Below are positions 1,917-61,582 of a stretch of DNA of 64,000 nt, one piece after another (positions within the stretch are counted from its first letter, which is position 1; the number at the start of each line of letters is the position of its first letter). Origin of the DNA: Lytechinus pictus (taxonomy: Eukaryota); the NCBI RefSeq assembly GCF_037042905.1, contig NC_087252.1:1366001-1430000 (forward strand), written 5' to 3'. Position numbers and translations under genes: made by a program. The notes below the pieces were generated by a model. It saw nothing but the letters and a program-made list of their open reading frames with translations, did not search any database and had not been told where the DNA came from.

Positions 1917-2495
1917 CCCGGGGGGGGGGGGGGGGGGGCACTTACATTGACGAGTGGATACCATGCGCGACCAAAAAAACATGTAAAAATTATGTCTTTT
2001 TCAAGATAGGGCACGTTACGTACGTAATGTAATAAGGGTGTCAAAAACACTAAAATAATGAAAAAAGGGTATCTATTTTGATAGGAAAGCTACGTGTTTA
2101 GGGTCAAATTTGCGAGAGTATAAAAAAATCAAGACTAAAATGTTTTAAATAGGATGTACTTTTTGCCCCAAGAGTCAACACTACATGTTTAGAGTACGAT
2201 ATTTGCAAGTGGGGCTGTACTAAACCCAATGATGTAGGTAAAGGTAAAACCGACGACCGACGTCCGTGACATAACAATTGAAATATACTTGTTTAGGGGT
2301 TCAATTCAGGGAATATACTTGCCAATAGTATCGTTTTGTTTCCAATACTTGTTATGGGTAGGGTTTCACACGCCAAAACTTGTTAAGGGGTACATTTTCA
2401 GAATATGGAAAATACGTGTTTAGGGTGCTTTTTGAGATCTCATGGTCGCGCATGGTATCCACTCGTCAATGGAAGTGCCCCCCCCCCCCCCCGGG
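1917..2495. mobile_element. MITE with CCCGGG(G)n termini and 8-bp TSD, nested inside an older MITE
   Basis: TIR gcacttacattgacgagtggataccatgcgcgacc / ggtcgcgcatggtatccactcgtcaatggaagtgc; TSD atttatca at 1909-1916 and 2496-2503. Confidence 0.9.
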
Positions 2496-4973
2496 ATTTA
2501 TCAGCTAATCTGCCACTCCAATCATTCGGATCTGTTTGAGAATGATAACTGAAAAAAGTTTTGTTTACCATTCATGCATGGATTAAGAACTTAATTCCCT
2601 AAAAAAAGGTACACAAAGTAAACAAAATCTTGACATCTTTGGCTTATCATAATTTTAGCATTGACTTGGTTGAGTTACACTGGACCTCAAAATATGGGCG
2701 TTTAGAACAACTCAGTCTTGTTATCTACTTTGGGCAGTACTAATGATAATAATAATTGTGGCTTCTTGTATAGCGCACAGGTCCACCTTTCGGTGCTCAT
2801 TGCGCCAATATTTCCCTTCCATTGCTTAAAACAGATGATAGAGGTTTCTTCCTACTTTAGGGGATGATATGAAATACCCTTTGCATTGCCAAGATAAGCC
2901 CAGTCTGTTTTTATTCTTTCATGGTTAATTTATACACATTATGGCCCTTATTTTGAAGTCCAGTCTGAGGTCATAATCAAACTCTTTTTTTTGTTAATAT
3001 CACGGGAAGCCAAAAATGGTGTTTACATCCTATCTCCCCATACTTCAATTGTGAATAAAGATGTGTTAGTTATACCATGGACCTACTGCTAGTAGGTCCA
3101 TGGTTATACCAAGGAGGTTTAAATGAGATGGAGTAACAGCAAACAAAATCCCTTTGAACAAGCTTCGAAGCCGCCAGCAAAAAGTATGTCAGACATGCAA
3201 TTTGCTCAACATCTCTTGCAATTGTGTAGACAAATGATTCCCGCATTAATTACTTTTTCGCCGCATCTTGGTCTGGTTATATGTGTAGTACATAATTCGG
3301 AGGCATGCGGAAATAAACTATGCAATATGTCCTGAAATATGACTCAAATTTGCTCGACTGGGCATGTGCGGGCACTCATCTGGCATATACAGTAATGAAC
3401 AACAATATTCCACCGACCACATTTGAAATTTTCATTCGCCGCAAACGATCGGAAAAGTGTTAAAAACTGGTTTCAGTAAAGGTCTAATTCTTTCTTTTTT
3501 CACTAATTAAAGGTTAATTGATATAATCTGGGCAAATATCTTGTTGTAATAGTGCTTGGTTATTGATGTTTTGTCATGCGTTCAAATTTCAGTTTGGTTA
3601 TTAATATGAAAGATGGAAAATCAATACAAATGAATATTCGTAAAATTTCACCCCTCGGATTTCTTCAATGAAACTGCCGGCTTCGAAGCTGGACATCAAA
3701 AGGGTCCTTATTGCCGTTCTTTCTTTTGTGCTTCTTTAGAAATGAACAGCTGCTTGAATAAATTTGTTGACTGTTGGAACTCCAGTCATAGAATCTCCTT
3801 AGTTATACCACAACTATAGGCCAGAGTTTAAAGTTCAGATTATAGGCCTATGTGTATTCGTAATACCTCAATAACTTTATGGCTTTAGTGTGAAGTGCAC
3901 GTCCTTTCATAGTTTTGGGGAAAGGATTCGTTGAAAATTTCAGCTATTTCATTTTTTTTATCTATGGCATTACTCTGAACTCTGGTTGACCCTGATCTTT
4001 AAGTTGGTGTTAGAGTCTTGCATTTCTTTGTAAGACGCAAATCTGGGAAGCATTTCAAGAGAAAAATATTGTGATTTTCTCTGATTATTTGTTATAAGCT
4101 ACTGAAATCCTTGCATCTGATTGGCTCAGAGCAAATTAGCCAGTGATTTTCACTGACTATTATTTGTTTCATGAAATGTTGGTCCACATCATTTATATTG
4201 CGCCATATTTCAGTTAAAAAAACATTCAAAGACGCAGGCTCATCCAATAAAGCTAATTATTACACATCTGCTGAAATAAGTGAGTTTTGAGGGATGATTT
4301 GAAGAGTTCATTTTGTCAATGTTCGTGTGATTGAATTTAGAAAGTAAGCCAATCAATATCAAGGATAGTTGTCAAATCCGACAAGTTGTCAGATGGCAAT
4401 GTTAATGAAATGCTGTCCTAGGGGACATCTTTGAAATAAAGAAATCAAATTAAATTATATATTTATATATCATGTATGTTATGTCTTAAATGGGCATTCA
4501 TTTGTGTTTACTACCAATGTCATCAGGCCTTTGACTTTCATTATGTTTTCTTCCTTTGAAATAACTTATTGGCAGAGTTCTTTGACTCTAATTATCAAAG
4601 TTGACATGCTATTTTTGTAGTGTAAGTTACCTATCTTATGTCTGTTTGTTTGTCATTATAGGATAATTTCTCATAGATATCTTTTTCCTTTGAAATACTG
4701 TTAATCTTGATGTAGAGAGTTATTTTAGGCAATATTTGGAATGGTTGTGCCAGTAAAAGAAGATAAGCATCGAGTTGTTTTGACCTTGATTATATTTTTT
4801 AAGTTAAACAAGATATTAATTTTGACCAGTCAAACATGATGTAACCAAGAAGGGTTCAATATTCTTTTCCAAACCTACCCATATCTTGTTCTTCTCTGTC
4901 TCCTCCTCATCTACAGATAGACAATCATTTTTGTTCCCCTTTGTTTGGAACAATTTCTCATCATTTATCCTGG

Positions 4974-10587: not shown

Positions 10588-11575
10588 AACAAGTGGAACG
10601 CCTCTGGCAGTCTCGCCTGCATTACGCGATTTAATATAGCAGCAGTGCTAACTTTGAAAACTACTGTAAGATAATCATTCACAAAAACACCATTCATATA
10701 ATGACATAATACCACTTCATTGACCATAGATGACATTTGAACGGTGACTTAAGACTTGTCAACTACACCCATGTCCACATTTCATTCACTCTATCCATAA
10801 ACTTTCAAAGTTATGATGGCAATTCAACAATTACCTCGACATGGCCTAAGTTTATTGACCTTAACTGACCTTCGACCTTGGTTTTGTGACCTGAAACTCA
10901 CAGGGGATGTTCAGTGATACTTGATTACTCTTATATCCCAAGTTTTATGAAATAGATCCATAAACTTCAGAGTTAGAATGGTAATTCAACAAATACCCCC
11001 AACAGGGCCAAAGTTCATTGACCTTAAATGACCTTTGACCATGGTCATGTGACCTGAAACTCGTACAGGATGTTCAGTGATACTCGATTACTCTTATGTC
11101 CAAGTTTTATGAACTTGATCCATAAACCTTCAGAGTTAGGATGGTAATTTAACAAAGACCCCCAACACGGCCAAAGTTCATTGACCTTAAATGACCATTG
11201 ACCATCGTCATGTGACCTGAAACTCAGGAAGGATGTTCACTAATACTTGATTAACCTTATGTCCAAGTTTCATGAACTAGATCCATAAATTTTCAAAGTT
11301 ATGATAGTAATTCAACAAATACCCCCAACTTGACCAAAGTTCATTGACCCTAAATGACCTTTGACCTTGGTCGTGTGACCTGAAACTCGAGCAGGATGTT
11401 CACTAATACTTGATTAACCTTATGTCCAAGTTTCATGAACTAGGTCCATATACTTTCTAAGTTATGATGTCATTTCAAAAACTTAACCTTAGGTTAAGAT
11501 TTGATGTTGACGCCGCCGCCGCCGTCGGAAAAGCGGCGCCTATAGTCTCGCTCTGCTATGCAGGCGAGACAAAAA
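10588..11575 (-). mobile_element. Helentron-associated (HINE/DINE-1/pearl-like) non-autonomous element with internal ~163-bp tandem repeats
   Basis: Subterminal inverted repeat gtctcgcctgcat / atgcaggcgagac; adjacent short IR and (CGG)n microsatellite; T-rich ends; ~4 copies of a 163-bp unit (ccaaagttcattgacc at 11008, 11171, 11334). Confidence 0.75.
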
Positions 11576-29189: not shown

Positions 29190-29622
29190 TCAACAGCTCA
29201 ACACTGAGTGATATAAACACCGTGATCAGTCCAAGATTGGTGTTATGAATGGTGTTTGCATTTCCTTCACACCCACTTTGTGTTCAGCAAAATGGCACCA
29301 CTCGTGTATTAACAGCTCAACACCGAGTAATGGTAATATAAACACCCAAATTATTCCAAGTTTGGTGTTATGTGTGGTGTTTGCATTTCCTTCACACCCA
29401 GTTTGCATTTAGAAAACCGCACCACTCATGTATTGACAGCTCAACACTGAGTAATGGTAATATAAACACCCAAATTATTCCAAGTTTGGTGTTATGTGTG
29501 GTGTTTGCATTTCCTTCACACCCAGTTTGCATTTAGAAAACCGCACCACTCATGTATTGACAGCTAAACACTGAGTTATGGTAATAAAAACACCCAAAGT
29601 ATTCCAAGTCTGGTGTTATGTA
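29190..29622. repeat. Tandem repeat, ~124-bp unit, ~3.5 copies
   Basis: acagct(c/a)aacac at 29312, 29436, 29560. Confidence 0.85.
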
Positions 29623-37810: not shown

Positions 37811-38376
37811 CTAGAGCTTCATTGTTTGAAGAATTTCGCTACATAATTCCTTATACTGACTGGCATCTCCTGCTATTTTCCGTAATTTGAGACCGTTAAG
37901 CGCGAGACCCGGAACCCGACACACTTCCATTTCCATCTCCACACCGTTCTGTTGCAACTCAAACATATTTTCGTTGTTCGTGTAAACTAATTCGGGGTGC
38001 CTGCGATCCAACGTCCTTCGGATTTCGTTGACTATTTCATTAAGTTCTTTACACGTTGTCATACTGAATGATTTCGCATGCTTTATCGGCGACGGTTCGC
38101 TCGCGAGGTCCGACGAGTCGCTCAACGAGATACAACTCATGTTCATACTCTGCCTGATCAACGGCGGAACGCCGCCCTCATAGTCGAGTTTGACGAGACC
38201 GACAGTCATGCCTGAGTTATTATTGTTCGCCATGTTGAATATATCACCCGAAGGGACACGAAAGGTTCTTTGTAAGAGCTGGGTCTGGACATGCCCTGTT
38301 GTTGCATGAGCTGAGTGGTGACGCTGGTGATTGCGTAGTTGACCCTGACTCCCCCGGAAGCCCAAATGGAAGAGTC
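37811..38376 (-). CDS. SIK3: SIK3-like kinase terminal exon encoding a KA1-like domain
   Basis: Long CT tract and ttAG acceptor at 38378-38377; phase 1 fits the previous exon; ends MEMEVCRVPGLALNGLKLRKIAGDASQYKELCSEILQTMKL-stop. Confidence 0.82.
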
Positions 38377-42828: not shown

Positions 42829-45593
42829 GTAATTTATACTTTATACTTAACCTTTCTTTACATTTACATTTACATTGTATCATATCAAGGTGTTTTTAAG
42901 CAGTAAATAATCAAAAATATGATTCTGCAAGTAATATACAGGATGACACTCTTAAGGTAAACATATTTACAAGACATGCAATTCTTAACATACAGTGTTT
43001 TTACTGAGCTTGCAAAATAAGGAAATATCTCTTGGAATTTTGATGTGAAGTGTATTACGCAAAGGTTGTATGATGTGATGGTAATATAAAAATATTGGTG
43101 TCAGCATAAAGTCCTTAGCCACTAGGAAAAAGGTCTGAGAAAACTTCCACATATCCCTAGCCCTGGGTGTTATCATAAAGAAATTTTAAAGAGTAATCTT
43201 GTCATATACCGGCAGTGCAATACTGGAATATCTGGGATGTATTTGAGGCCGGCCTTGAAGCCACATATTGCCGGCCTTGGCCTCGGCCCGGTTCATATGT
43301 CAAAAGTATTTGGGTGAAGGTTTTTCCAGTGGCATTGTGACTTTAAGTACCAGCCTGGACTACATGCCTGTCAAACATCAAAATAGTTCTGCATTTTTGC
43401 TCATATGAATAGGATTAAAACATCATACACATCTTTAGGCAGAGTGTACATGTTATTATCAAAGAAAATTTAAGTCAAATCAAAACAAATTAAAGCTGAA
43501 AATTGTTTTTTTTTTTTTAAATAATAATAATAAATACAAAATCAGATTCTCCCCTCCAGAATGCTTGGATAAAGTTATTAATGAATAGCTCATATAAAAG
43601 GCATGATAGAAGAATGTGTACATAACTTGAACTCACAAGGCCTACAATGCTGTAAAAATAATTTCTTACATGTACGTACATTATCACACATAAATACCTA
43701 CACAAAACTAAGTATGTCATACTGTGGTCATCACAACTTACATACATATATAAGATATAATTTGAATCAAATCAACTTTAATACATTCTTGTGTGACATA
43801 ATCCATATTTTCCATGTGAATTCACAAAATACAATATCACCTCATAATTTGGTCATGTAGAATACAGTAATACACCAATTGTTAATCTAAATTTTCTCCA
43901 ATATAAAACAATTACATTTAAGAATTTAACATACATACATCTACGGCTCATTTCTCATGTGCTTAATTTTTTATAGTCTAAATGTATATACTGATTTTTT
44001 TTTTAAATACAATACACTACTCCACAATACTGCATAACGACACTATATGTATTTAGCTACAGCACCACTACAGCGATAACACTGGAATTTTTATCATCGC
44101 CACTAATGAATAGCCAGAAACAGGCGTGGTTTATCAAAAATTAATCAGTGTCCAAATCATGACATGCCACTACTTTCCTACAAAGAGGCTCTCTGGGTAG
44201 GAATGCTGCCCTCTACTGTTGAACATTGGTTAGGCAATACAATTCATGGCATTCAAAAATCCTATCATCTTTCTACAGCAATACTGACGTGTAATACTTA
44301 TGTAGGATACATACTGTGCGTAATTCAGCTCACATGCATAAGGTTTCACGCTGGAAGAATATACAATGTGTACATTTCATATGAACATACCGATTGCCCA
44401 ATACTTCGATATTCATAAACAAAAATCAGCTGACGATTTTGCATTGCTTACATTCCAATCTAGCCTTAGTGACATCTCTACAATTCCTTCTTACGTATAA
44501 CAAGACCTTTGGAGCCAAATAATTACTACATTCACTCGAAATTTTATGATAATCTGGAGAAAGTGCTGTTTTATAAGCATCTATATTCATTTAAAACATA
44601 GTTAGAAACTTATATTTAGAAGATAGAAATTAACTGTTATTGATGAGAAGTTCATGGGACATGATGCAAATAATTCAGAACCCAAAAGTGAATGAAAAAC
44701 TAAAGAGGTAAAATCAATCATCAATGTTTTCTTCCTCCTTAAACTTGTCTTCGTGCATTGAGATATGATATAAATGAATCTGTACAAAGGTGATGGAACA
44801 GATACCATGTAACCCATATAAAGAATGATTCAGATTGATGTATTATGATCTGGGCCCCGTTGCATAAAAGTTAATATTATGGTAACTTTGCCATCTAATG
44901 GTAACTACCATGGTAACGCTGACCAACAGCCAATCAAAATCAAGGATTCCATGCAAAATACCATTGGATGGCAAAGTTAGCATAATGGTAACATTTATGC
45001 AACGGCGCCCTGATGTATAACTGCAATGGGATAAGAGACCACTTTATTTACCATGAAACCCTTTTAAAGAATGATAACCCATTTTTTTAGACTGATGTTT
45101 GTGAAATAGGTGTCTATCAGGTAAACAGATATGACATCCTTTAGTCACCATAAAAGAATGATAACTATGTTTAAAAAGATGGTTATTAAATGATTGAACT
45201 GAATTAAAGAGTTGAATTTGCAAAAAAAATAACGAAAAATGTTTAGTACATACATATCGTCACTGGGGTGTTCAAAGAAAAGAAAATTGAATATTAAATA
45301 CTGTATTTCAGAAGTATGGCAATGTTTGGAGATCTCATATTGTCTCAAAAGAGACTTATTTCTGTAGAGAACTCTTTCTAGGCAAAAGAAGGTTGCCACT
45401 TATGCCAAACTTTAGCAAACAACTTTTTCTGAGCTGTTTTGAAAATTTGGAACTGTGTGAATACTATTTTTTCAGAAAGGAGATAAAATGATATATGATT
45501 AGAGCTCTGCCTTTTTATCTGTGAAACCATTTATATGATGATAACTAGAAGGATATCGAATGGTATATATGAATCTGTGTGGAGTCTATTTAC

Positions 45594-46674
45594 CTTGAAA
45601 CCCACTAATGGAATGCATTTCTTGATTCTGAGTCGTGTTGTCTAACACCTGGTGATGCAGTTCGGCTTCCTCAAACTCTTGAGCTTGTTGTTCTAACTGG
45701 GAAGGAACCATACCAGGAAGCAGATAGCGTTGACTGAAAGGCACTGCCGACATCCCTGCAGGAACCTCGTTGCTGACCGACAAGGCTTCGTTCAGCTCTC
45801 GGTTGGCCTGGGCCGCTAGGTAGGCTTGCGCCGCAGAGGGATGGTAGTTAGGCAAGTGTGGATGGGCGGCCATACCTATGTGGAGAGGCTCGGTGGGGAC
45901 GGCCGAGAGTGGGGCGGTGTGGTGTAAGTGTCTATGAGCCAGGTGAGCAAAATCTTGAATGGGGATCTGATGGAGCGGGTGCTGAAGGTGTTGTTGGACG
46001 GTATCAGGGCTGCCAGCCATGCCAAGCTGGTTAGTGTAGTTGGAGTTCTGTTGTATCATGTGAAGCTGTTGATATGCCATGGCTTGCATCAACTGCTCCG
46101 CGTCGATACTGGAGCTATGTTGCTCCCTATCAAGGCTCTGGTTACTGTCTCTACGGGTACTGTCTCTGCGTTCTCTGGTATCTTCCGTCTCCTCTAAGAG
46201 CGGACCATTGATACCAACATGCTCCAGGCTTCCATCCCCTCGAAGACTCCCCGACCCTTGATTAGACCTATCTGGACCATTCAGGTTCACCTCCACTCCT
46301 CGGTGCGAGTGAACGGAATGAGCGGATACTGGGCTTGGAACAGACTCGTCAGGCTGGCTACAAACAGAATGCGGTGATCCCACCATTGTGTCCAAGGGAT
46401 TGGTCGGGAAGCTTGTATCTGTTGGACTCTCGACGCCAGTCTCCTCCGGGTGGACGGGAAGCGAGCTGGACAATGGAGGGCTCGCTCTACTGCCTGGGCT
46501 GTGTAGCTTACGAAGGCTTGGAGGACTGTCCGACTGACGTTGGAGCTGTAGGCGTTGCAGATGCTGCTGGAGATGCTGCGTTTGGATGTCTGCGATGGGG
46601 ACATCACTACGAATGGACGAAACTGGTGAGAGGTGAGGCGACATGCTTGATATCCCCGTTGGTGAATGGGATAA
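45594..46674 (-). CDS. SIK3: SIK3-like kinase exon, long Q/H/S/P-rich disordered region
   Basis: Acceptor ttatttcAG, donor CAAG|gtaaat; 1081 nt, phase 0-1, open throughout. Confidence 0.88.
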
Positions 46675-47032
46675 CTGAAATAAGAAAATAGAATACACCA
46701 TTAATCTCCCTGATTACCAAGGTACATTAATCTTATGATTCACTACATTACTTCTGTCAGCAGATACAACCTACTGAAGAGCTGCTAGGCTAAAGCCAAG
46801 ATTTCAATATCCAAAGTCCTTTGAGAGCACATACATACGATATTTGAGATGATAGTATGCAAATTCAATAATATTTATGTTATTAAAACTTTCAAAATAG
46901 AGATGATAAATCTACAATGCTTTTAAAACAAAGTAAAGAGAATGGAATGATGTTAACAAGAAATGGTATACTCCCTTTTTGTCTGACTAGCCTAACACAG
47001 ATTAATATGAAATTTATAAGTACAACTTTTAC

Positions 47033-47405
47033 CATGCCAGTGTGCATCTTTTCCTTGTGAAGCTGATGCTGGTGCTGCTGAATCTCCAAGGCTCGTGCAT
47101 CAACGGGGGAGCTGAACTGCTTTTGTAACTGCTGACACTCCTTATGAAGCTGTTTCAGAGAACTCTTCTGACTACTGCTGCTACCCCCTCCGGTAGCAGC
47201 CAGTCGTTCAAGACGCTCCCGCTGGTAGTACTGGAGATTGGGCATGCCGTCGGAGGCTCGCCGGGCGTTGGTGGAGGCAAAGAGGTGAGGGGGGCGCTCT
47301 GGTTGGAGGAAGCGTTCCCGTCGGGTGCGGGAGACGATAGGCATGTCGTTGGTTGAGAGAACATCGGGGCCGATGGTGTGCCGGCATCGACCCTTGTTGA
47401 GATAT
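47033..47405 (-). CDS. SIK3: SIK3-like kinase exon (YLNKGRCRHTI…RRASDG…LKQLHKECQQLQK)
   Basis: Acceptor tttttgacAG, donor ATG|gtaaaa; 373 nt, phase 2-0; second RRASDG motif. Confidence 0.9.
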
Positions 47406-47667
47406 CTGTCAAAAAGGAAATAGAAAGTTTGAAGGTTATGCAATGTCTAAATGAGAGTGAGGTCCTGCATTATAATTCGGGTTATTGTTTGGTGTGACTT
47501 GATTTGAAATGGAGAAATTCCTACAAGTAGTATTGTCTGTTCCTTCTTTTCCCTCCCTCGTTCATCAAGAGATTCCCTTCTTTCGTTCTCTTTATCATAC
47601 TCACTGATAGTATTTTCCTTTCCTTCTCTTCCCAAGTTAATTAATCAGTACAGACCCTGTTCTTTTG

Positions 47668-50600
47668 TTCTCTCATTCACTTTCCTTCATACTACCTCTT
47701 CATCTCATTCTTATTCACTACCTCACTCATCTAAAGATCACATTCATTCGTTCTCTCAATCACTCACCTTCGTATTACCTCTTCATCTCATTCTTATTCA
47801 CTCCATCACCCATCTAAAGATCACATTCATTCGTTCTCTCAATCACTCACCTTCGTATTACCTCTTCATCTCATTCTTATTCACTCCATCACTCATCTAA
47901 AGATCACATTCATTCGTTCTCTCAATCACTCACCTTCGTATCGCCTCTTCATCTCATTCTTATTCACTCCATCACCCATCTAAAGATCACATTCATTCGT
48001 TCTCTCAATCACTCACCTTCGTATTGCCTCTTCATCTCATTCTTATTCACTCCATCACCCATCTAAAGATCACATTCATTCGTTCTCTCAATCACTCACC
48101 TTTGTATTGCCTCTTCATCTCATTCTTATTCACTACCTCACCCATCTAAAGATCACATTCATTCGTTCTCTCAATCACTCACCTTCGTATGGCCTCTTCA
48201 TCTCATTCTTATTCACTCCATCACCCATCTAAAGATCACATTCATTCGTTCTCTCAATCACCTACCTTCGTATGGCCTCTTCATCTTATTCTTATTCACT
48301 CCATCACTCATCTAAAGAACACATTCATTCGTTCTCTCAATCACTCACCTTCGTACTGCCTCTTCATCTTGTTCTTATTCACTACCTCACCCATCTAAAG
48401 ATCACATTCATTCGTTCTCTCAATCACTCACCTTCGTACTGCCTCTTCATCTTGTTCTTATTCACTACCTCACCCATCTAAAGATCACATTCATTCGTTC
48501 TCTCAATCACTCACCTTCGTATTGCCTCTTCATCTCATTCTTATTCACTCCATCACCCATCTAAAGATCACATTCATTCGTTCTCTCAATCACTCACCTT
48601 CGTATTGCCACTTCATCTCATTCTTATTCACTCCATCACTCATCTAAAGATCACATTCATTCGTTCTCTCAATCACTCACCTTCGTATTGCCTCTTCATC
48701 TCATTCTTATTCACTCCATCACTCATCTAAAGATCACATTCATTCGTTCTCTCAATCACTCACCTTCGTATTACCTCTTCATGTCATTCTTATTCACTCC
48801 ATCACTCATCTAAAGATCACATTCATTCGTTCTCTCAATCACTCACCTTCGTATTGCCTCTTCATCTCATTCTTATTCACTCATCACCCATCTAAAGATC
48901 ACATTCATTCGTTCTCTCAATCACTCACCTTCGTATTGCCTCTTCATCTCGTTCTTATTCACTCCATCACTCATCTAAAGATCACATTCATTCGTTCTCT
49001 CAATCACTCACCTTCGTATTACCTCTCATCTCATTCTTATTCACTCCATCACTCATCTAAAGATCACATTCAATCGTTCTCTCAATCACTCACCTTCGTA
49101 TTGCCTCTTCATCTTGTTCTTATTCACTACCTCACCCATCTAAAGATCACATTCATTCGTTCTCTCAATCACTCACCTTCGTATTGCCTCTTCATCTCAT
49201 TCTTATTCACTACCTCACCCATCTAAAGATCACATTCATTCGTTCTCTCAATCACTCACCTTTGTATTGCCTCTCATCTCATTCTTATTCACTCCATCAC
49301 CCATCTAAAGATGACATTCATTCGTTCTCTCAATCACTCACCTTCGTATTGCCTCTTCATCTCATTCTCATTCACTCCATCACTCATCTAAAGATCACAT
49401 TCATTCGTTCTCTCAATCACTCACCTTCGTATTGCCTCTTCATCTCATTCTTATTCACTCCATCACCCATCTAAAGATCACATTCATTCGTTCTCTCAAT
49501 CACTCACCTTCGTATTGCCTCTTCATCTCATTCTTATTCACTCCATCACCCATCTAAAGATCACATTCATTCGTTCTCTCAATCACTCACCTTCGTATTG
49601 CCTCTTCATCTCATTCTTATTCACTCCATCACCCATCTAAAGATCACATTCATTCGTTCTCTCAATCACCTACCTTCGTATTGCCTCTCATCTCATTCTT
49701 ATTCACTCCCTCACCCATCTAAAGATCACATTCATTCGTTCTCTCAATCACCTACCTTCGTATGGCCTCTTCATCTCATTCTTATTCACTCCATCACTCA
49801 TCTAAAGATCACATTCATTCGTTCTCTCAATCACTCACCTTCGTATTACCTCTTCATCTCATTCTTATTCACTCCATCACCCATCTAAAGATCACATTCA
49901 TTCGTTCTCTCAATCACTCACCTTCGTATTACCTCTTCATCTCATTCTTATTCACTCTATCACCCATCTAAAGATCACATTCATTCGTTCTCTCAATCAC
50001 CTACCTTCGTATTGCCTCTCATCTCATTCTTATTCACTACCTCACCCATCTAAAGATCACATTCATTCGTTCTCTCAATCACTCACCTTTGTATTGCCTC
50101 TTCATCAGGCTCTCCATCACCCATCTAAAGATCACATTCATTCATTCTCTCAATCACTCACCTTCGTATTGCCTCTTCATCTCATTCTTATTCACTCCAT
50201 CACCCATCTAAAGATCACATTCATTCGTTCTCTCAATCACTCACCTTCGTATTACCTCTTCATCTCATTCTTATTCACTCCATCACCCATCTAAAGATCA
50301 CATTCATTCGTTCTCTCAATCACTCACCTTCGTATTACCTCTTCATCTCATTCTCATTCACTACCTCACCCATCTAAAGATCACATTCATTCGTTCTCTC
50401 AATCACTCACCTTCGTATTACCTCTTCATCTCATTCTTATTCAATACCTCACTCATCTAAAGATCACATTCATTCGTTCTCTCAATCACTCACCTTCGTA
50501 TTACCTCCTCATCTCATTCTTATTCACTCCATCACCCATCTAAAGATCACATTCATTCGTTCTCTCAATCACTCACCTTCGTATTGCCTCTTCATCTCAT

Positions 50601-53600
50601 TCTCATTCACTCCATCACTCATCTAAAGATCACATTCATACGTTCTCTCAATCACTCACCTTCGTATTGCCTCTTCATCTCATTCTTATTCACTACCTCA
50701 CCCATCTAAAGATCACATTCATTCGTTCTCTCAATCACTCACCTTCGTATTACCTCTTCATCTCATTCTTATTCACTCCATCACCCATCTAAAGATCACA
50801 TTCATTCGTTCTCTCAATCACTCACCTTCGTATTACCTCTTCATCTCATTCTTATTCACTCCATCACTCATCTAAAGATCACATTCATTCGTTCTCTCAA
50901 TCACTCACCTTCGTATCGCCTCTTCATCTCATTCTTATTCACTCCATCACCCATCTAAAGATCACATTCATTCGTTCTCTCAATCACTCACCTTCGTATT
51001 GCCTCTTCATCTCATTCTTATTCACTCCATCACCCATCTAAAGATCACATTCATTCGTTCTCTCAATCACTCACCTTTGTATTGCCTCTTCATCTCATTC
51101 TTATTCACTACCTCACCCATCTAAAGATCACATTCATTCGTTCTCTCAATCACTCACCTTCGTATGGCCTCTTCATCTCATTCTTATTCACTCCATCACC
51201 CATCTAAAGATCACATTCATTCGTTCTCTCAATCACCTACCTTCGTATGGCCTCTTCATCTTATTCTTATTCACTCCATCACTCATCTAAAGATCACATT
51301 CATTCGTTCTCTCAATCACTCACCTTCGTACTGCCTCTTCATCTTGTTCTTATTCACTACCTCACCCATCTAAAGATCACATTCATTCGTTCTCTCAATC
51401 ACTCACCTTCGTACTGCCTCTTCATCTTGTTCTTATTCACTACCTCACCCATCTAAAGATCACATTCATTCGTTCTCTCAATCACTCACCTTCGTATTGC
51501 CTCTTCATCTCATTCTTATTCACTCCATCACCCATCTAAAGATCACATTCATTCGTTCTCTCAATCACTCACCTTCGTATTGCCACTTCATCTCATTCTT
51601 ATTCACTCCATCACTCATCTAAAGATCACATTCATTCGTTCTCTCAATCACTCACCTTCGTATTGCCTCTTCATCTCATTCTTATTCACTCCATCACTCA
51701 TCTAAAGATCACATTCATTCGTTCTCTCAATCACTCACCTTCGTATTACCTCTTCATGTCATTCTTATTCACTCCATCACTCATCTAAAGATCACATTCA
51801 TTCGTTCTCTCAATCACTCACCTTCGTATTGCCTCTTCATCTCATTCTTATTCACTCATCACCCATCTAAAGATCACATTCATTCGTTCTCTCAATCACT
51901 CACCTTCGTATTGCCTCTTCATCTCGTTCTTATTCACTCCATCACTCATCTAAAGATCACATTCATTCGTTCTCTCAATCACTCACCTTCGTATTACCTC
52001 TCATCTCATTCTTATTCACTCCATCACTCATCTAAAGATCACATTCAATCGTTCTCTCAATCACTCACCTTCGTATTGCCTCTTCATCTTGTTCTTATTC
52101 ACTACCTCACCCATCTAAAGATCACATTCATTCGTTCTCTCAATCACTCACCTTCGTATTGCCTCTTCATCTCATTCTTATTCACTACCTCACCCATCTA
52201 AAGATCACATTCATTCGTTCTCTCAATCACTCACCTTTGTATTGCCTCTCATCTCATTCTTATTCACTCCATCACCCATCTAAAGATGACATTCATTCGT
52301 TCTCTCAATCACTCACCTTCGTATTGCCTCTTCATCTCATTCTCATTCACTCCATCACTCATCTAAAGATCACATTCATTCGTTCTCTCAATCACTCACC
52401 TTCGTATTGCCTCTTCATCTCATTCTTATTCACTCCATCACCCATCTAAAGATCACATTCATTCGTTCTCTCAATCACTCACCTTCGTATTGCCTCTTCA
52501 TCTCATTCTTATTCACTCCATCACCCATCTAAAGATCACATTCATTCGTTCTCTCAATCACTCACCTTCGTATTGCCTCTTCATCTCATTCTTATTCACT
52601 CCATCACCCATCTAAAGATCACATTCATTCGTTCTCTCAATCACCTACCTTCGTATTGCCTCTCATCTCATTCTTATTCACTCCCTCACCCATCTAAAGA
52701 TCACATTCATTCGTTCTCTCAATCACCTACCTTCGTATGGCCTCTTCATCTCATTCTTATTCACTCCATCACTCATCTAAAGATCACATTCATTCGTTCT
52801 CTCAATCACTCACCTTCGTATTACCTCTTCATCTCATTCTTATTCACTCCATCACCCATCTAAAGATCACATTCATTCGTTCTCTCAATCACTCACCTTC
52901 GTATTACCTCTTCATCTCATTCTTATTCACTCTATCACCCATCTAAAGATCACATTCATTCGTTCTCTCAATCACCTACCTTCGTATTGCCTCTCATCTC
53001 ATTCTTATTCACTACCTCACCCATCTAAAGATCACATTCATTCGTTCTCTCAATCACTCACCTTTGTATTGCCTCTTCATCAGGCTCTCCATCACCCATC
53101 TAAAGATCACATTCATTCATTCTCTCAATCACTCACCTTCGTATTGCCTCTTCATCTCATTCTTATTCACTCCATCACCCATCTAAAGATCACATTCATT
53201 CGTTCTCTCAATCACTCACCTTCGTATTACCTCTTCATCTCATTCTTATTCACTCCATCACCCATCTAAAGATCACATTCATTCGTTCTCTCAATCACTC
53301 ACCTTCGTATTACCTCTTCATCTCATTCTCATTCACTACCTCACCCATCTAAAGATCACATTCATTCGTTCTCTCAATCACTCACCTTCGTATTACCTCT
53401 TCATCTCATTCTTATTCAATACCTCACTCATCTAAAGATCACATTCATTCGTTCTCTCAATCACTCACCTTCGTATTACCTCCTCATCTCATTCTTATTC
53501 ACTCCATCACCCATCTAAAGATCACATTCATTCGTTCTCTCAATCACTCACCTTCGTATTGCCTCTTCATCTCATTCTCATTCACTCCATCACTCATCTA

Positions 53601-56161
53601 AAGATCACATTCATACGTTCTCTCAATCACTCACCTTCGTATTGCCTCTTCATCTCATTCTTATTCACTACCTCACCCATCTAAAGATCACATTCATTCG
53701 TTCTCTCAATCACTCACCTTCGTATTGCCTCTTCATCTCATTCTTATTCACTCCATCACCCATCTAAAGATCACATTCATTCGTTCTCTCAATCACGTAC
53801 CTTCGTATTGCCTCTTCATCTCATTCTCATTCACTCCATCACTCATCTAAAGATCACATTCATTCGTTCTCTCAATCACCTACCTTCGTATTGCCTCTTC
53901 ATCTCATTCTTATTCACTCCATCACCTATCTAAAGATTACATTCATTCGTTCTCTCAATCACTCACCTTCGTATTGCCTCTTCATCTCGTTCTTATTCAC
54001 TCCATCACCCATCTAAAGATCACATTCATTCGTTCTCTCAATCACTCACCTTCGTATTGCCTCTTCATCAGGCTCTCCATCACTCATCTAAAGATCACAT
54101 TCATTCGTTCTCTCAATCACTCACCTTCGTATTGCCTCTTCATCAGGCTCTCCATCACTCATCTAAAGATCACATTCATTCGTTCTCTCAATCACTCACC
54201 TTCGTATTGCCTCTTCATCAGGCTCTCCATCACTCATCTAAAGATCACATTCATTCGTTCTCTCAATCACTCACCTTCGTATTGCCTCTTCATCAGGCTC
54301 TCCATCACTCATCTAAAGATCACATTCATTCGTTCTCTCAATCACGTACCTTCGTATTGCCTCTTCATCAGGCTCTCCATCACTCATCTAAAGATCACAT
54401 TCATTCGTTCTCTCAATCACTCACCTTCGTATTGCCTCTTCATCAGGCTCTCCATCACTCATCTAAAGATCACATTCATTCGTTCTCTCAATCACTCACC
54501 TTCGTATTGCCTCTTCATCAGGCTCTCCATCACCCATCTAAAGATCACATTCATTCGTTCTCTCAATCACCTACCTTCGTATGGCCTCTTCATCAGGCAC
54601 TCCATCACCCATCTAAAGATCACATTCATTCATTCGTACCTTCGTATTGCCTCTTCATCAGGCTCTCCATCACTCATCTAAAGATCACATTCATTCGTTC
54701 TCTCAATCACCTACCTTTGTATTGCCTCTTCATCAGGCACTCCATCACCCATCTAAAGATCACATTCATTCATTCGTACCTTCGTATTGCCTCTTCATCA
54801 GGCTCTCCATCACCCATCTAAAGATCACATTCATTCGTTCTCTCAATCACTCACCTTCGTATTGCCTCTTCATCAGGCTCTCCATCACTCATCTAAAGAT
54901 CACATTCATTCGTTCTCTCAATCACTCACCTTCGTATTGCCTCTTCATCAGGCTCTCCATCACTCATCTAAAGATCACATTCATTCGTTCTCTCAATCAC
55001 GTACCTTCGTATTGCCTCTTCATCAGGCTCTCCATCACTCATCTAAAGATCACATTCATTCGTTCTCTCAATCACGTACCTTCGTATTGCCTCTTCATCA
55101 GGCTCTCCATCACTCATCTAAAGATCACATTCATTCATTCTCTCAATCACGTACCTTCGTATTGCCTCTTCATCAGGCTCTCCATCACTCATCTAAAGAT
55201 CACATTCATTCGTTCTCTCAATCACCTACCTTCGTATTGCCTCTTCATCAGGCTCTCCATCACTCATCTAAAGATCACATTCATTCGTTCTCTCAATCAC
55301 CTACCTTCGTATTGCCTCTTCATCAGGCTCTCCATCACCCATCTAAAGATCACATTCATTCGTTCTCTCAATCACTCACCTTCGTATTGCCTCTTCATCA
55401 GGCTCTCCATCACCCATCTAAAGATCACATTCATTCGTTCTCTCAATCACTCACCTTCGTATTGCCTCTTCATCAGGCTCTCCATCACTCATCTAAAGAT
55501 CACATTCATTCGTTCTCTCAATCACTCACCTTCGTATTGCCTCTTCATCAGGCTCTCCATCACCCATCTAAAGATCACATTCATTCGTTCTCTCAATCAC
55601 TCACCTTCGTATTGCCTCTTCATCAGGCTCTCCATCACCCATCTAAAGATCACATTCATTCGTTCTCTCAATCACTCACCTTCGTATTGCCTCTTCATCA
55701 GGCTCTCCATCACTCATCTAAAGATCACATTCATTCGTTCTCTCAATCACTCACCTTCGTATTGCCTCTTCATCAGGCTCTCCATCACCCATCTAAAGAT
55801 CACATTCATTCGTTCTCTCAATCACTCACCTTCGTATTGCCTCTTCATCAGGCTCTCCATCACTCATCTAAAGATCACATTCATTCGTTCTCTCAATCAC
55901 TCACCTTCGTATTGCCTCTTCATCAGGCTCTCCATCACCCATCTAAAGATCACATTCATTCGTTCTCTCAATCACTCACCTTCGTATTGCCTCTTCATCA
56001 GGCTCTCCATCACTCATCTAAAGATCACATTCATTCGTTCTCTCAATCACTCACCTTCGTATTGCCTCTTCATCAGGCTCTCCATCACTCATCTAAAGAT
56101 CACATTCATTCGTTCTGTCAATCACTCACCTTCGTATTGCCTCTTCATCAGGCTCTCCATC
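47668..56161 (-). repeat. ~8.5-kb intronic satellite of ~83-bp units (~47668-54060) and 75-bp units (~54060-56161), about 105 copies, derived from a SIK3 exon-intron junction
   Basis: Periods of 83 (e.g. ORFs at 48189/48272) and 75 read directly; the unit contains the exon end GATGAAGAGGCAATACGAAG and donor GTGAGT. Copy number estimated as length/period. Confidence 0.97.
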
Positions 56162-56227
56162 TGAGTTTTCATCTTCCTCTGGCATGGTTGTATCTGATAA
56201 TCTCTGTTGTAATGTCTCCGTACCAAG
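56130..56227 (-). CDS. SIK3: SIK3-like kinase exon (LGTETLQQRLSDTTMPEEDENSDGEPDEEAIR-R); its 3' end is the source of the adjacent satellite
   Basis: Acceptor ttttccatatAG, donor GAAG|gtgagt; 98 nt, phase 0-2, the phase needed to join 57286 (phase 0) to 47405 (phase 2); gives the SIK3-like SDGEPDxEAxxRYL motif. Not in the ORF track. Confidence 0.9.
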
Positions 56228-57285: not shown

Positions 57286-57459
57286 CTGTCCAGTAGCATC
57301 AATGTCCCCTGGTTGACTGGTTCTGACCGCAGTCTGAAGCTGTTTCCTGAACTGTTGGATATTCAGATACATGTTAGCGCCCCCATCGGATGCCCTACGA
57401 CCAAAGTTAGATTGCCCAGCAGTGGCTTCTAGGGCTGGCGGCTTCAACAGGTGCTGCTC
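57286..57459 (-). CDS. SIK3: SIK3-like kinase exon (EQHLLKPP…GRRASDGGAN PKA site)
   Basis: Acceptor ccccgtAG, donor CAG|gtatgc; 174 nt; GRRASDGGAN motif of SIK3. Confidence 0.93.
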
Positions 57460-57713: not shown

Positions 57714-58103
57714 ATGCAATGTTCTTATCAGTGCAGTTTCATAATACAGGCCCACTTGAATGATAACACACTATTTCACTATATACAATACATTCATATT
57801 GCAATAACTATGTTACCAAGTAGCAAAGAGGGTAGTTCTCCTCTCTAAACAGCCAAGTTTCTCTGGAAAAACAACATTATAGGCTATTCTCATTAATTCT
57901 CTTTATTATGCAATGTTCTTATCAGTGCAGTTTCATAATACAGGCCCACTTGAATGATAACACACTATTTCACTATATACAATACATTCATATTGCAATA
58001 ACTATGTTACCAAGTAGCAAAGAGGGTAGTTCTCCTCTCTAAACAGCCAAGTTTCTCTGGAAAAACAACATTATAGGTTATTCTCATTAATTCTCTTTAT
58101 TAT
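57714..58103. repeat. Near-perfect tandem duplication of 194 bp in a SIK3 intron
   Basis: atgcaatgttcttatcagtgcag at 57714 and 57908. Confidence 0.92.
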
Positions 58104-58138
58104 GAAAAAAATCTGAAAAGTGACACCCTGCTTCTTAC

Positions 58139-58462
58139 CTTATAATTGAGCTGTTGTTCTGCTTGGTTGGGTATAGCATTCAACAGAGGCAAGTTCTGTG
58201 GCAAGTTCATATTGAACGCAGCACCTGCCCCACCGAAGGGCAGTCCCATCAGGCCAGCCAGGGGGGCATCGCCCTCCCCACCAAGGCCCAGACCGGCCAG
58301 CTGTGGAGGGGGTGGGAGCTTGGCCCGTAAGGCTGCAGGGAGCTTATGGCCGGAGGGGTCACCAGGGATGACGGTGTTCCTGCGGATCTGGAGGTAGCGG
58401 GCCAGAGCCTCTGGGCTTGGCTCCTCTGGGTCACTATCCATCTCCTCTAGTTGGTCATTAGA
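58139..58462 (-). CDS. SIK3: SIK3-like kinase exon (EEPSPEALARYLQIRRNT PKA/14-3-3 site … LNYK)
   Basis: Acceptor catttcAG, donor AAG|gtaaga; 324 nt; EEPSPEAL-RYL--RR-T is SIK3-specific. Confidence 0.92.
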
Positions 58463-59188: not shown

Positions 59189-59434
59189 CTGAATAACTTG
59201 GTTATCTTCATTGGTCACATTAACTTGAGGGATCATCTGATCACCAAGCATCAGGTTGCGTTGAGCGGCGGCGCCCTCCCCAATCGCCAAGGCATACAGG
59301 GCAGCTGCTGATTGGCTCTCCTCCGTGGCCTCGCCCATGACACGCCCAGGCGACGCCCTCAGGTGACGACGATGCTTGTCAAGCAGGAGGTTGTAGATTG
59401 CACTGTGCTCATCAAAACTTTGGTTTGTTATAGA
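59189..59434 (-). CDS. SIK3: SIK3-like kinase exon: UBA end (SFDEHSAIYNLLLDK) and linker
   Basis: Acceptor cattcAG, donor CAG|gttggt; 246 nt, phase 0-0; AIYxLL motif. Confidence 0.9.
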
Positions 59435-60842: not shown

Positions 60843-61066
60843 CTGCATAATATCTTCCGTCTTCAGCCCCATTGAGACCATGTGTTGAAGGATCAGCTCG
60901 TTAACCGGTTCCTCCCGATCGCTTTCAACGTTGTGTTCAGCGAACATCTTATCAAAAACTGGGTCTGCTCCATCTGCCTTGGTCCATCGATGATTCAGGA
61001 CCTGGTCTGTCGTGTAACGTCGGCCTGGGTCCAGGATCAACATGTGTTTTATTAGATCTTCACAAC
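60843..61066 (-). CDS. SIK3: SIK3-like kinase exon: end of kinase domain (CEDLIKHMLILDPGRRY…HRW) and start of UBA
   Basis: Acceptor aactAG, donor CAG|gtttgt; 224 nt, phase 1-0; AMPK-related kinase subdomain XI. Confidence 0.9.
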
Positions 61067-61347: not shown

Positions 61348-61582
61348 AATCATTATCATCATCATCATCATCATTACATTTACCACTACCATCATCATTG
61401 ATCAGCATCATTATCATCCTCCTGCTCCTCCTCCTCATCATTATCATTATCATCATCATTATCACATTCAACACTCCCATCATCATCATCATCAGCACTA
61501 TCATCATCACCACTACCATCACCATCTTCATCATTATCATTGTCGTCGTCATCATCATTATCATCGTAGCCACCATCATCAT
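61348..61582. repeat. (CAT)n-type microsatellite
   Basis: Degenerate CAT/CAC/TAT triplet run. Confidence 0.9.

What the first reader, a model, noticed from the sequence alone, without database searches (positions are those of the whole stretch)
47668..56161. A satellite made from a SIK3 splice junction: about 100 intact 5' splice sites stacked in one intron
The repeat unit is the last ~20-32 nt of the SIK3 exon 56227-56130 plus its donor and intron start (…GATGAAGAGGCAATACGAAG|GTGAGTGATTGAGAGAACG…). The array begins inside the exon and runs ~8.4 kb to within ~360 nt of the next acceptor (47406). The donor variants I noted (GTGAGT, GTAGGT, GTACGT, GTACGA) all keep AG|GT; only the degenerate last unit (~47668-47700) has lost it. 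The proximal donor gives the intact protein. Extending the exon to any distal donor reads CGA AGG TGA, a stop, truncating SIK3 before its third and fourth PKA-type motifs and the KA1 domain, and probably triggering NMD. The spliceosome must pick 1 of ~100 near-identical donors. Inference: array length could act as a heritable dial on SIK3 output, a U1 snRNP sink, or a route for stepwise intron removal. The first unit also carries a variant (GATTGACAG vs GATTGAGAG, 56117) that I did not see elsewhere.
Basis: partly seen in the sequence, partly recalled or inferred. Interest (0 to 1): 0.9.

Follow-up and report, generated by a model that had tools for sequence, protein, structure and literature searches.

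The report
Repeated splice donor in urchin SIK3
The end of one exon of a sea urchin's SIK3 gene, with its splice signal, has been copied about 100 times into the next intron, yet the assembled RNA uses the first signal and many other genes of this animal carry the same kind of repeat, so it is a large but ordinary example of a known oddity.

Summary
The array is real. It holds 105 intact AG|GT donors plus one dead end copy over 8.4 kb, in the single SIK3-like gene of a Lytechinus sea urchin. Its units occur in four public runs, including a second species. Only donor 1 keeps the frame open. The main RNA contig joins the exon end straight to the next exon, with no joint from the 74 short-tail donors; rare or NMD-destroyed products are not excluded. 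The layout is known: human F7-type minisatellites and amphioxus 'mirages', where only the first one to three donors are used. It is not special to SIK3. Of 31 other donor-motif arrays fetched from this genome, 16 start in a Pfam-matching frame, and two arrays have 103 and 138 copies. The scan noted the same before, in this genome and others. An apparent excess conservation of decoy GT failed its control. The dial, U1-sink and stepwise-removal ideas have no support. A 2,975-bp block is doubled almost exactly, so the copy number may be inflated. Verdict: new member of a known kind.

The parts
56130..56227 (-). SIK3 coding exon (98 nt) whose last 32 nt seed the repeat
   Evidence: AG/GT borders and open frame; protein match to P0001 and P0008
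56124..56129 (-). Authentic 5' splice site (donor 1, AAG|GTGAGT); its TGA is the stop met by any extension
   Evidence: RNA contigs
47668..56161 (-). Whole minisatellite: 105 intact donors plus one dead end copy, about 96% of an 8,724-nt intron
54050..56129 (-). Proximal block, units 1-28: 26 of 75 nt and 2 of 65 nt, each ending in a 32-nt copy of the exon end
47685..54049 (-). Distal block, units 29-105: 75 units of 83/82 nt ending in a 20-nt copy of the exon end, and 2 of 75 nt
50743..53717 (-). Higher-order repeat copy 1 (units 33-68, 2,975 bp)
   Evidence: 1 mismatch to copy 2
47768..50742 (-). Higher-order repeat copy 2 (units 69-104, 2,975 bp)
47664..47730 (-). Diverged terminal copy with a dead donor (GA at 47684); probable old seed of the 83-nt unit
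   Evidence: 15 of the first 20 nt match the start of the intron
47033..47405 (-). Next SIK3 exon (373 nt), acceptor AG ending at 47406
   Evidence: RNA contigs of X1 and X5
57286..57459 (-). Upstream SIK3 exon (RRAS motif)
58139..58462 (-). Upstream SIK3 exon (RRNT motif)
59189..59434 (-). SIK3 exon with the second half of the UBA_SIK3 domain
60843..61066 (-). SIK3 exon with the end of the kinase domain and the start of the UBA domain
45594..46674 (-). Penultimate SIK3 coding exon
37811..38376 (-). Last SIK3 coding exon with the KA1 domain and stop

Best explanation
A junction-spanning intronic minisatellite (F7-type, or 'mirage') that splicing tolerates. Inferred origin: an old short duplication left a diverged copy of the exon end and donor 83 nt inside a roughly 360-nt intron. 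Misaligned crossing-over or slippage between the two copies made the 83-nt unit. A second register, using the GATGGAG shared by intron and exon, made the 75-nt unit. Ordinary repeat turnover, including a recent 36-unit block duplication, grew the array. Inferred splicing: the exon's acceptor (56228) pairs with the nearest donor, giving a 98-nt exon, and that donor is met first in the transcript. Donors 2, 3 and 4 would give 173, 248 and 323 nt, and deeper donors have no good acceptor to pair with. The array is removed as one intron, and any leak gives stop-containing RNA that is probably degraded. Shown: anatomy, frames, main RNA form, recurrence across genes. Inferred: origin, selection mechanism, neutrality.
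For: X1's 4,160-nt contig (depth 66) runs from exon 47405 into the true exon end and has no piece on the repeat unit. Neither X1 nor X5 shows a joint from the 83-type donor to 47406, while the control intron (46674/47033) is seen in both. All gene models with the junction motif read through it as donor 1 predicts (7 of 9 compared; P0014 does not reach it, P0015 did not match my motif). All tested alternatives are unproductive: 0 of 104 extensions, 0 of 32 single, 0 of 1024 double and 0 of 32768 triple pseudo-exon paths stay open. The array's acceptor-like TAG has 8-9 pyrimidines of 17, against 9-14 at the gene's 8 real acceptors. Precedent: F7, IFI6, CBS, LMNB2 and PDGF use only the first one to three donors (PMC1557585); amphioxus mirages do not disturb splicing (PMC3087553, PMC3902484). 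Recurrence: 16 of 31 other arrays start in a Pfam-matching frame, among them EF-G, a class I tRNA synthetase, Utp13, SH2, OSBP, kelch and EGF. No sign of selection on the SIK3 donors: 42 of 75 core columns are invariant, so an invariant GT has chance about 0.31.
Against: The RNA evidence is contigs from two runs whose RNA status is guessed or unknown. Contigs drop rare forms, and NMD would hide distal products. In X5 the mRNA contig breaks 28 nt into the tail shared by the exon and the 75-type unit, so it cannot tell donor 1 from those 30 donors. A multi-copy 83-type unit is present in a second species (X9), so the array has probably persisted since before that split; neutrality allows this but does not require it. 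The F7 experiments used at most nine copies in mammalian cells, not 105 in an echinoderm. Decoy GT looked under-mutated in two of my tests before the control removed the case.
Confidence: 0.8

Rival explanations
1. Heritable dial: a measurable share of transcripts uses donors 2-4 or deeper, or the long array slows intron removal. The products carry the stop and are destroyed, so array length or make-up sets SIK3 output.
For: Every distal path is unproductive. The downstream donors pair with U1 about as well as donor 1 (7-8 of 11 Watson-Crick positions against a recalled U1 consensus). IFI6 and CBS do use two pseudo-sites. Unit sequence is present in RNA-like runs X1 and X5, and the unit is shared with a second species.
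Against: No unit in X1's main contig and no 75-type contig laid from X1. Unit depth in X5 (90) fits about 30 copies times an unspliced background of 3. Leak to donors 2-3 would not depend on whether there are 10 or 100 copies (inference). The same layout occurs in many unrelated genes.
Confidence: 0.1
2. The array matters as a U1 snRNP binding platform, either a sink or protection against premature polyadenylation.
For: 104 extra U1-complementary sites per transcript. Decoy GT variable at 4 of 50 positions against 13.3 expected over 25 arrays.
Against: With the terminal copy included and base-adjusted rates the deficit shrinks to 7 of 36 vs 10.9 (P 0.075) and 10 of 40 vs 14.9 (P 0.045). Arrays picked by an acceptor motif with no exon behind them show the same deficit (1 of 14 vs 4.0-4.9), so the search itself explains it. 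Other U1-pairing positions vary like background (35 of 125 vs 440 of 1625). No AATAAA or ATTAAA in the array. U1 is far more abundant than one gene's nascent RNA (recalled).
Confidence: 0.03
3. The intron is removed stepwise (recursive splicing) through the AG|GT sites.
For: Each donor is preceded by AG.
Against: AAG sites in the array have only 5-7 pyrimidines in the 17 nt upstream. The unit's TAG is followed by AT, not GT, and lies 37 nt from its own donor. No joint from the last intact donor to the acceptor in contigs. An 8.7-kb intron needs no such route; another intron of this gene is 7.2 kb.
Confidence: 0.02
4. Assembly artefact. For the array as a whole this is unlikely; for the doubled 2,975-bp block alone it remains possible (my estimate about 0.3, which would leave 69 donors).
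For: Two 2,975-bp copies differ at 1 base. No listed run holds more than 0.07 of the array's sampled words.
Against: 43 distinct unit variants. Unit contigs in 4 of 4 runs laid; X1's 113-nt contig has the length of one full 83-nt cycle; X9's summed depth on the unit is 2,100-3,600 against 64-83 on exons (a sum, not a copy number).
Confidence: 0.03

Closest known systems
Human F7 intron 7 37-bp VNTR, with IFI6 (6-16), CBS intron 13, LMNB2 and PDGF minisatellites (Borensztajn et al. 2006, PMC1557585; seen: abstract, synopsis, introduction, start of results, and passages of results and discussion)
   Same: The first monomer spans the exon-intron border, so the donor is reiterated in the intron; the most upstream donor gives the mRNA.
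   Different: 105 donors against 5-26 in those genes; two unit types and a higher-order block; an echinoderm; donor choice here rests on contigs, not mutagenesis.
Amphioxus 'mirage' minisatellites: Adh3, globins BflGb6 and BflGb9, PGBD5, troponin C (PMC3087553 and PMC3902484, passages only; Canestro et al. 2002 was not held and is known to me only through these citing papers)
   Same: Tandem copies of an exon-intron boundary in an invertebrate deuterostome, at donor or acceptor ends, recurring in several genes, with concerted evolution, odd edge units and normal splicing.
   Different: Far more copies than the 3-6 given for BflGb6. Length variation between animals, and somatic instability, were not testable here.
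Human splicing-associated tandem repeats, spl-TRs (PMC10078293, passages only)
   Same: Repeat length near splice sites can shift splicing; this is the model for the 'dial' reading.
   Different: Those rest on measured genotype-splicing associations; none is shown for this locus.

Membership tests
Junction-spanning minisatellite (F7-type / mirage) | Head-to-tail repeat with a minisatellite-sized unit | tested here: met
   Units of 65-83 nt, 105.5 copies
Junction-spanning minisatellite (F7-type / mirage) | First monomer spans a real exon-intron boundary | tested here: met
   Exon 56227-56130 confirmed by protein identity and RNA contigs
Junction-spanning minisatellite (F7-type / mirage) | Splice signal reiterated intact in the intron | tested here: met
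   104 of 105 downstream copies keep GT
Junction-spanning minisatellite (F7-type / mirage) | Normal mRNA made from the authentic, most upstream donor | tested here: met
   X1 main contig holds no unit; X5 is uninformative beyond 28 nt. Main form only; minor forms untested
Junction-spanning minisatellite (F7-type / mirage) | Locus-specific unit, not a dispersed satellite | tested here: met
   52 of 52 matches in the own genome lie in this array (the tool scores only the best candidates)
Junction-spanning minisatellite (F7-type / mirage) | Copy number varies between alleles or cells | not testable with these tools
   Only short-read contigs were laid
Recursive-splicing (ratchet) intron | Pyrimidine tract plus YAG directly followed by GT | tested here: not met
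   AAG preceded by 5-7 pyrimidines of 17; the unit's TAG is followed by AT
Splicing-associated tandem repeat (spl-TR) / poison-splicing regulator | Repeat length is associated with splicing or expression | not testable with these tools
   No paired genotype and RNA data
Splicing-associated tandem repeat (spl-TR) / poison-splicing regulator | Alternative donors used in vivo | tested here: inconclusive
   No joint in contigs of X1 or X5, but contigs drop rare forms and NMD hides them
SIK3-like kinase gene | Kinase domain plus UBA_SIK3 domain, single copy | tested here: met
   Pfam Pkinase, UBA_SIK3 and KA1; one exon set in the genome

The most novel reading that the evidence does not exclude
The array is an old, length-variable element kept in two Lytechinus species because leak to downstream donors, or slowed intron removal, feeds SIK3 transcripts into NMD in proportion to array length or make-up. 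It would then be a heritable expression dial, and the dozens of similar arrays in this genome an unrecognised layer of repeat-encoded expression variation.
Probability: 0.08. Interest if true: 0.75.

Novelty: new member of a known kind. Interest (0 to 1): 0.3.

Why it matters
As it stands it is a clean natural stress test of 5' splice-site choice: the first of 105 near-equal donors gives the main mRNA. It also shows that donor-spanning minisatellites, known from a few human and amphioxus genes, are common and can be very large in a sea urchin. My searches listed no echinoderm report, but subscription journals are mostly not held. The useful object is the genome-wide set, not SIK3. It allows a test of whether first-donor choice has a copy-number limit, and whether such repeats arise at splice junctions more often than chance. 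It would matter much more only if array length were shown to change expression.

Tried and rejected
Run search on the array: 17 runs, none on record as RNA, largest share 0.07; these small shares are no evidence until laid, and 4 of the 17 were laid. Reads were laid only on 45500-47811, which holds one unit, so array length and the upstream junction were not examined in reads. X9's lack of cover at 47528-47683, and the absence of 75-type pieces among its listed records, prove nothing (37 records not shown). Metagenome scan for the unit: 0 hits. Attempt to check the earlier RCE1 note by family search: 0 matches. Selection on decoy GT: P 0.012 and 0.0005 at first, 0.045-0.075 after adding the terminal copy and base adjustment (the loosest setting crashed on false hits), and matched by the no-exon AG control; rejected as ascertainment. 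Donor-versus-acceptor asymmetry: the first acceptor scan was swamped by a dispersed satellite (4,733 matches). From I fetched 17 loci; 1 has a Pfam-matched exon right after the last AG (L045, CUB) and 2 more have an open frame ending at a donor (L056, L059). The patterns are not matched in stringency, so no asymmetry is claimed. Triple-donor counts do not exceed the reversed-pattern control consistently (295 vs 228, 99 vs 257, 110 vs 190, 111 vs 70); these are matches, not loci. L030 (138 copies) found no Pfam or PDB match, so its exon is unproven. Canestro 2002 was not held. No supplements were read; none is known to bear on the verdict.
Full report
Observation. The minus strand of 56161-47668 is a tandem array (TRF period 83, 105.5 copies). 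Cut at its donors it gives 105 units in 43 variants, with 105 GT donors (85 GTGAGT, 13 GTAGGT, 5 GTACGT, 2 GTACGA) and one dead end copy at 47684. Units 1-28 are 75 or 65 nt and end in the last 32 nt of the exon. Units 29-105 are 83 or 82 nt, apart from two of 75, and end in the last 20 nt. All 52 matches to the unit in the own genome lie in this array.

The gene. Eight exons in the window give one open frame of 1027 codons when donor 56129 is joined to acceptor 47406. It has the kinase end, UBA_SIK3 and KA1 domains and one copy in the genome. It is 100% identical to P0008 (source name: SIK3-like, Lytechinus pictus), 98.5% to P0001 (L. variegatus) and 87.7% to the S. purpuratus protein. The intron is 8,724 nt; collapsed to the last intact donor it would be 361 nt. 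Two RRxS/T motifs lie upstream of the junction, and an RCRHT and an RRAS downstream. Calling these PKA sites rests on the mammalian literature, of which I saw only a search listing, and on recall.

What the alternatives would give. Extension to any of 104 downstream donors stops at the TGA within donor 1. The unit's TCTTTAG could define pseudo-exons of 38, 45 or 46 nt, but 0 of 32 single, 0 of 1024 double and 0 of 32768 triple combinations stay open. That TAG has 8-9 pyrimidines in 17 nt, against 9-14 at the 8 real acceptors, and the array's AAG sites have 5-7, so they are not ratchet points. Exon sizes to donors 1-4 are 98, 173, 248 and 323 nt.

Independent sequence. The run search listed 17 runs with shares up to 0.07. 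Four were laid on 45500-47811 (all contigs). X1 (RNA by guess) has a 4,160-nt contig at depth 66 that splices the control intron and passes from exon 47405 into the true exon end, with no piece on the repeat unit. Its only other record is a 113-nt 83-type unit contig at depth 11. X5 shows the same joint but breaks 28 nt into the shared tail. It holds a 75-type unit contig at depth 90 beside an unspliced boundary contig at depth 3, as about 30 copies of background would give. Neither run shows a joint from the 83-type donor. X9 (DNA by guess) carries the same 3-nt and 15-nt insertions as P0001, so it is a second species. Its summed depth on the unit is 2,100-3,600 against 64-83 on exons, which points to a many-copy 83-type unit; that it lies in SIK3 there is inferred. 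X10 has both unit types but no exon cover. So the array is not an assembly invention, the main mRNA uses donor 1, and rare or degraded forms remain untested.

Origin (inferred). The terminal stretch carries the 83-type spacer and a decayed copy of exon end plus intron start (15 of 20 nt). That fits an old two-copy duplication whose misalignment produced the 83-nt unit, with a second register through GATGGAG producing the 75-nt unit next to the exon. Odd first and last units fit the exclusion of array edges from homogenisation described for mirages.

Is SIK3 special? Four scans of the own genome for three spaced AG|GTRAGT (lists cut at 100 rows) showed 44 other places. I fetched 31 and left out 10 simple GT/GA-rich repeats and 3 relatives of L017, which biases the sample towards true exons. 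For 29 of the 31 a frame ending at the first donor could be scanned. 16 match Pfam at E up to 0.01, 9 of them above the curated cut-off, including SH2, EF-G, Utp13, a class I tRNA synthetase, OSBP, kelch, EGF and FAO_M. L014 resembles myosin weakly (E 0.035). Copy numbers reach 138 (L030, exon unproven), 103 (L014), 97 (L019), 73 (L013) and 52 (L033). Acceptor-side arrays exist too (L045). A hand estimate, not a tool result, assuming about 200,000 introns and 36% GC, puts real donors at roughly a third of all AGGTRAGT sites. The observed share therefore needs at most a modest enrichment.

Selection on decoys. Within SIK3, 42 of 75 core columns are invariant, so an intact GT is unremarkable. 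Pooled over arrays, GT first looked protected (3 of 36; 4 of 50 vs 13.3). The deficit shrank with fairer settings and appeared equally in AG-selected arrays with no exon behind them (1 of 14 vs 4.0-4.9). I treat it as a product of how the arrays were found.

What is known. PMC1557585 (abstract, introduction, passages) describes this layout in F7, IFI6, CBS, LMNB2 and PDGF, with use of only the first one to three donors, and reports minigene evidence for choice of the most upstream functional site. PMC3087553 and PMC3902484 (passages) describe amphioxus mirages that leave splicing normal. PMC10078293 and PMC2812944 (passages) give the general background on repeats and splicing. Six searches listed no echinoderm case. 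Earlier notes of this scan report the same in this genome (RCE1 about 377 copies, ISYNA1 176, TRPA1, TBC1D9, Su(H)) and in other animals. These are unchecked; my one attempt to locate RCE1 failed.

Verdict. A real, large, probably old junction-spanning minisatellite that splicing tolerates; a new member of a known kind. The dial remains possible at low odds, and the U1-sink and stepwise-removal ideas have nothing in their favour. Interest 0.3.

Noticed in passing
window 47768-53717: A 36-unit, 2,975-bp block of the array is doubled with 1 mismatch: a very recent higher-order duplication or a local misassembly.
   Followed up: partly
L013-L043 (G000, many contigs): Many other donor-spanning minisatellites in this genome, 16 of 31 with a Pfam-matching frame before the first donor; the largest are L030 (138 x 61 nt), L014 (103 x 76 nt), L019 (97 x 57 nt) and L013 (73 x 74 nt).
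   Followed up: partly
L045:2269-2448, L059:2306-2593, L056:2195-2449 (minus strand): Acceptor-side arrays whose last copy opens an exon (CUB domain in L045; open frames ending at a donor in L059 and L056).
   Followed up: partly
window 57714-58104: A 194-bp tandem duplication, 99% identical, starting about 35 nt after the donor of SIK3 exon 58462-58139; it does not include the donor.
   Followed up: no
G000:C1:10885976 and many other places: A dispersed satellite of about 49 bp with an acceptor-like T-rich CAG dominates the 100 listed of 4,733 triple matches.
   Followed up: no
G000:C3:60813947 and C8:19993403; G000:C9:660420 and C27:890899: Two arrays appear twice in the assembly with near-identical unit order: haplotigs or segmental duplications.
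   Followed up: no
window 47684-47811, run X10: A large run of a third organism label holds both unit types at low depth but no exon cover, as expected for trace host DNA where only multi-copy sequence assembles.
   Followed up: no
   Followed up: no
L044: A 65-66-nt array whose unit looks by eye like a decayed whole LDL-receptor class A exon with both splice signals.
   Followed up: no
window 61349-61565, 10771-11469, 29211-29621: An ATC microsatellite and 163-bp and 124-bp tandem repeats elsewhere in the window.
   Followed up: no
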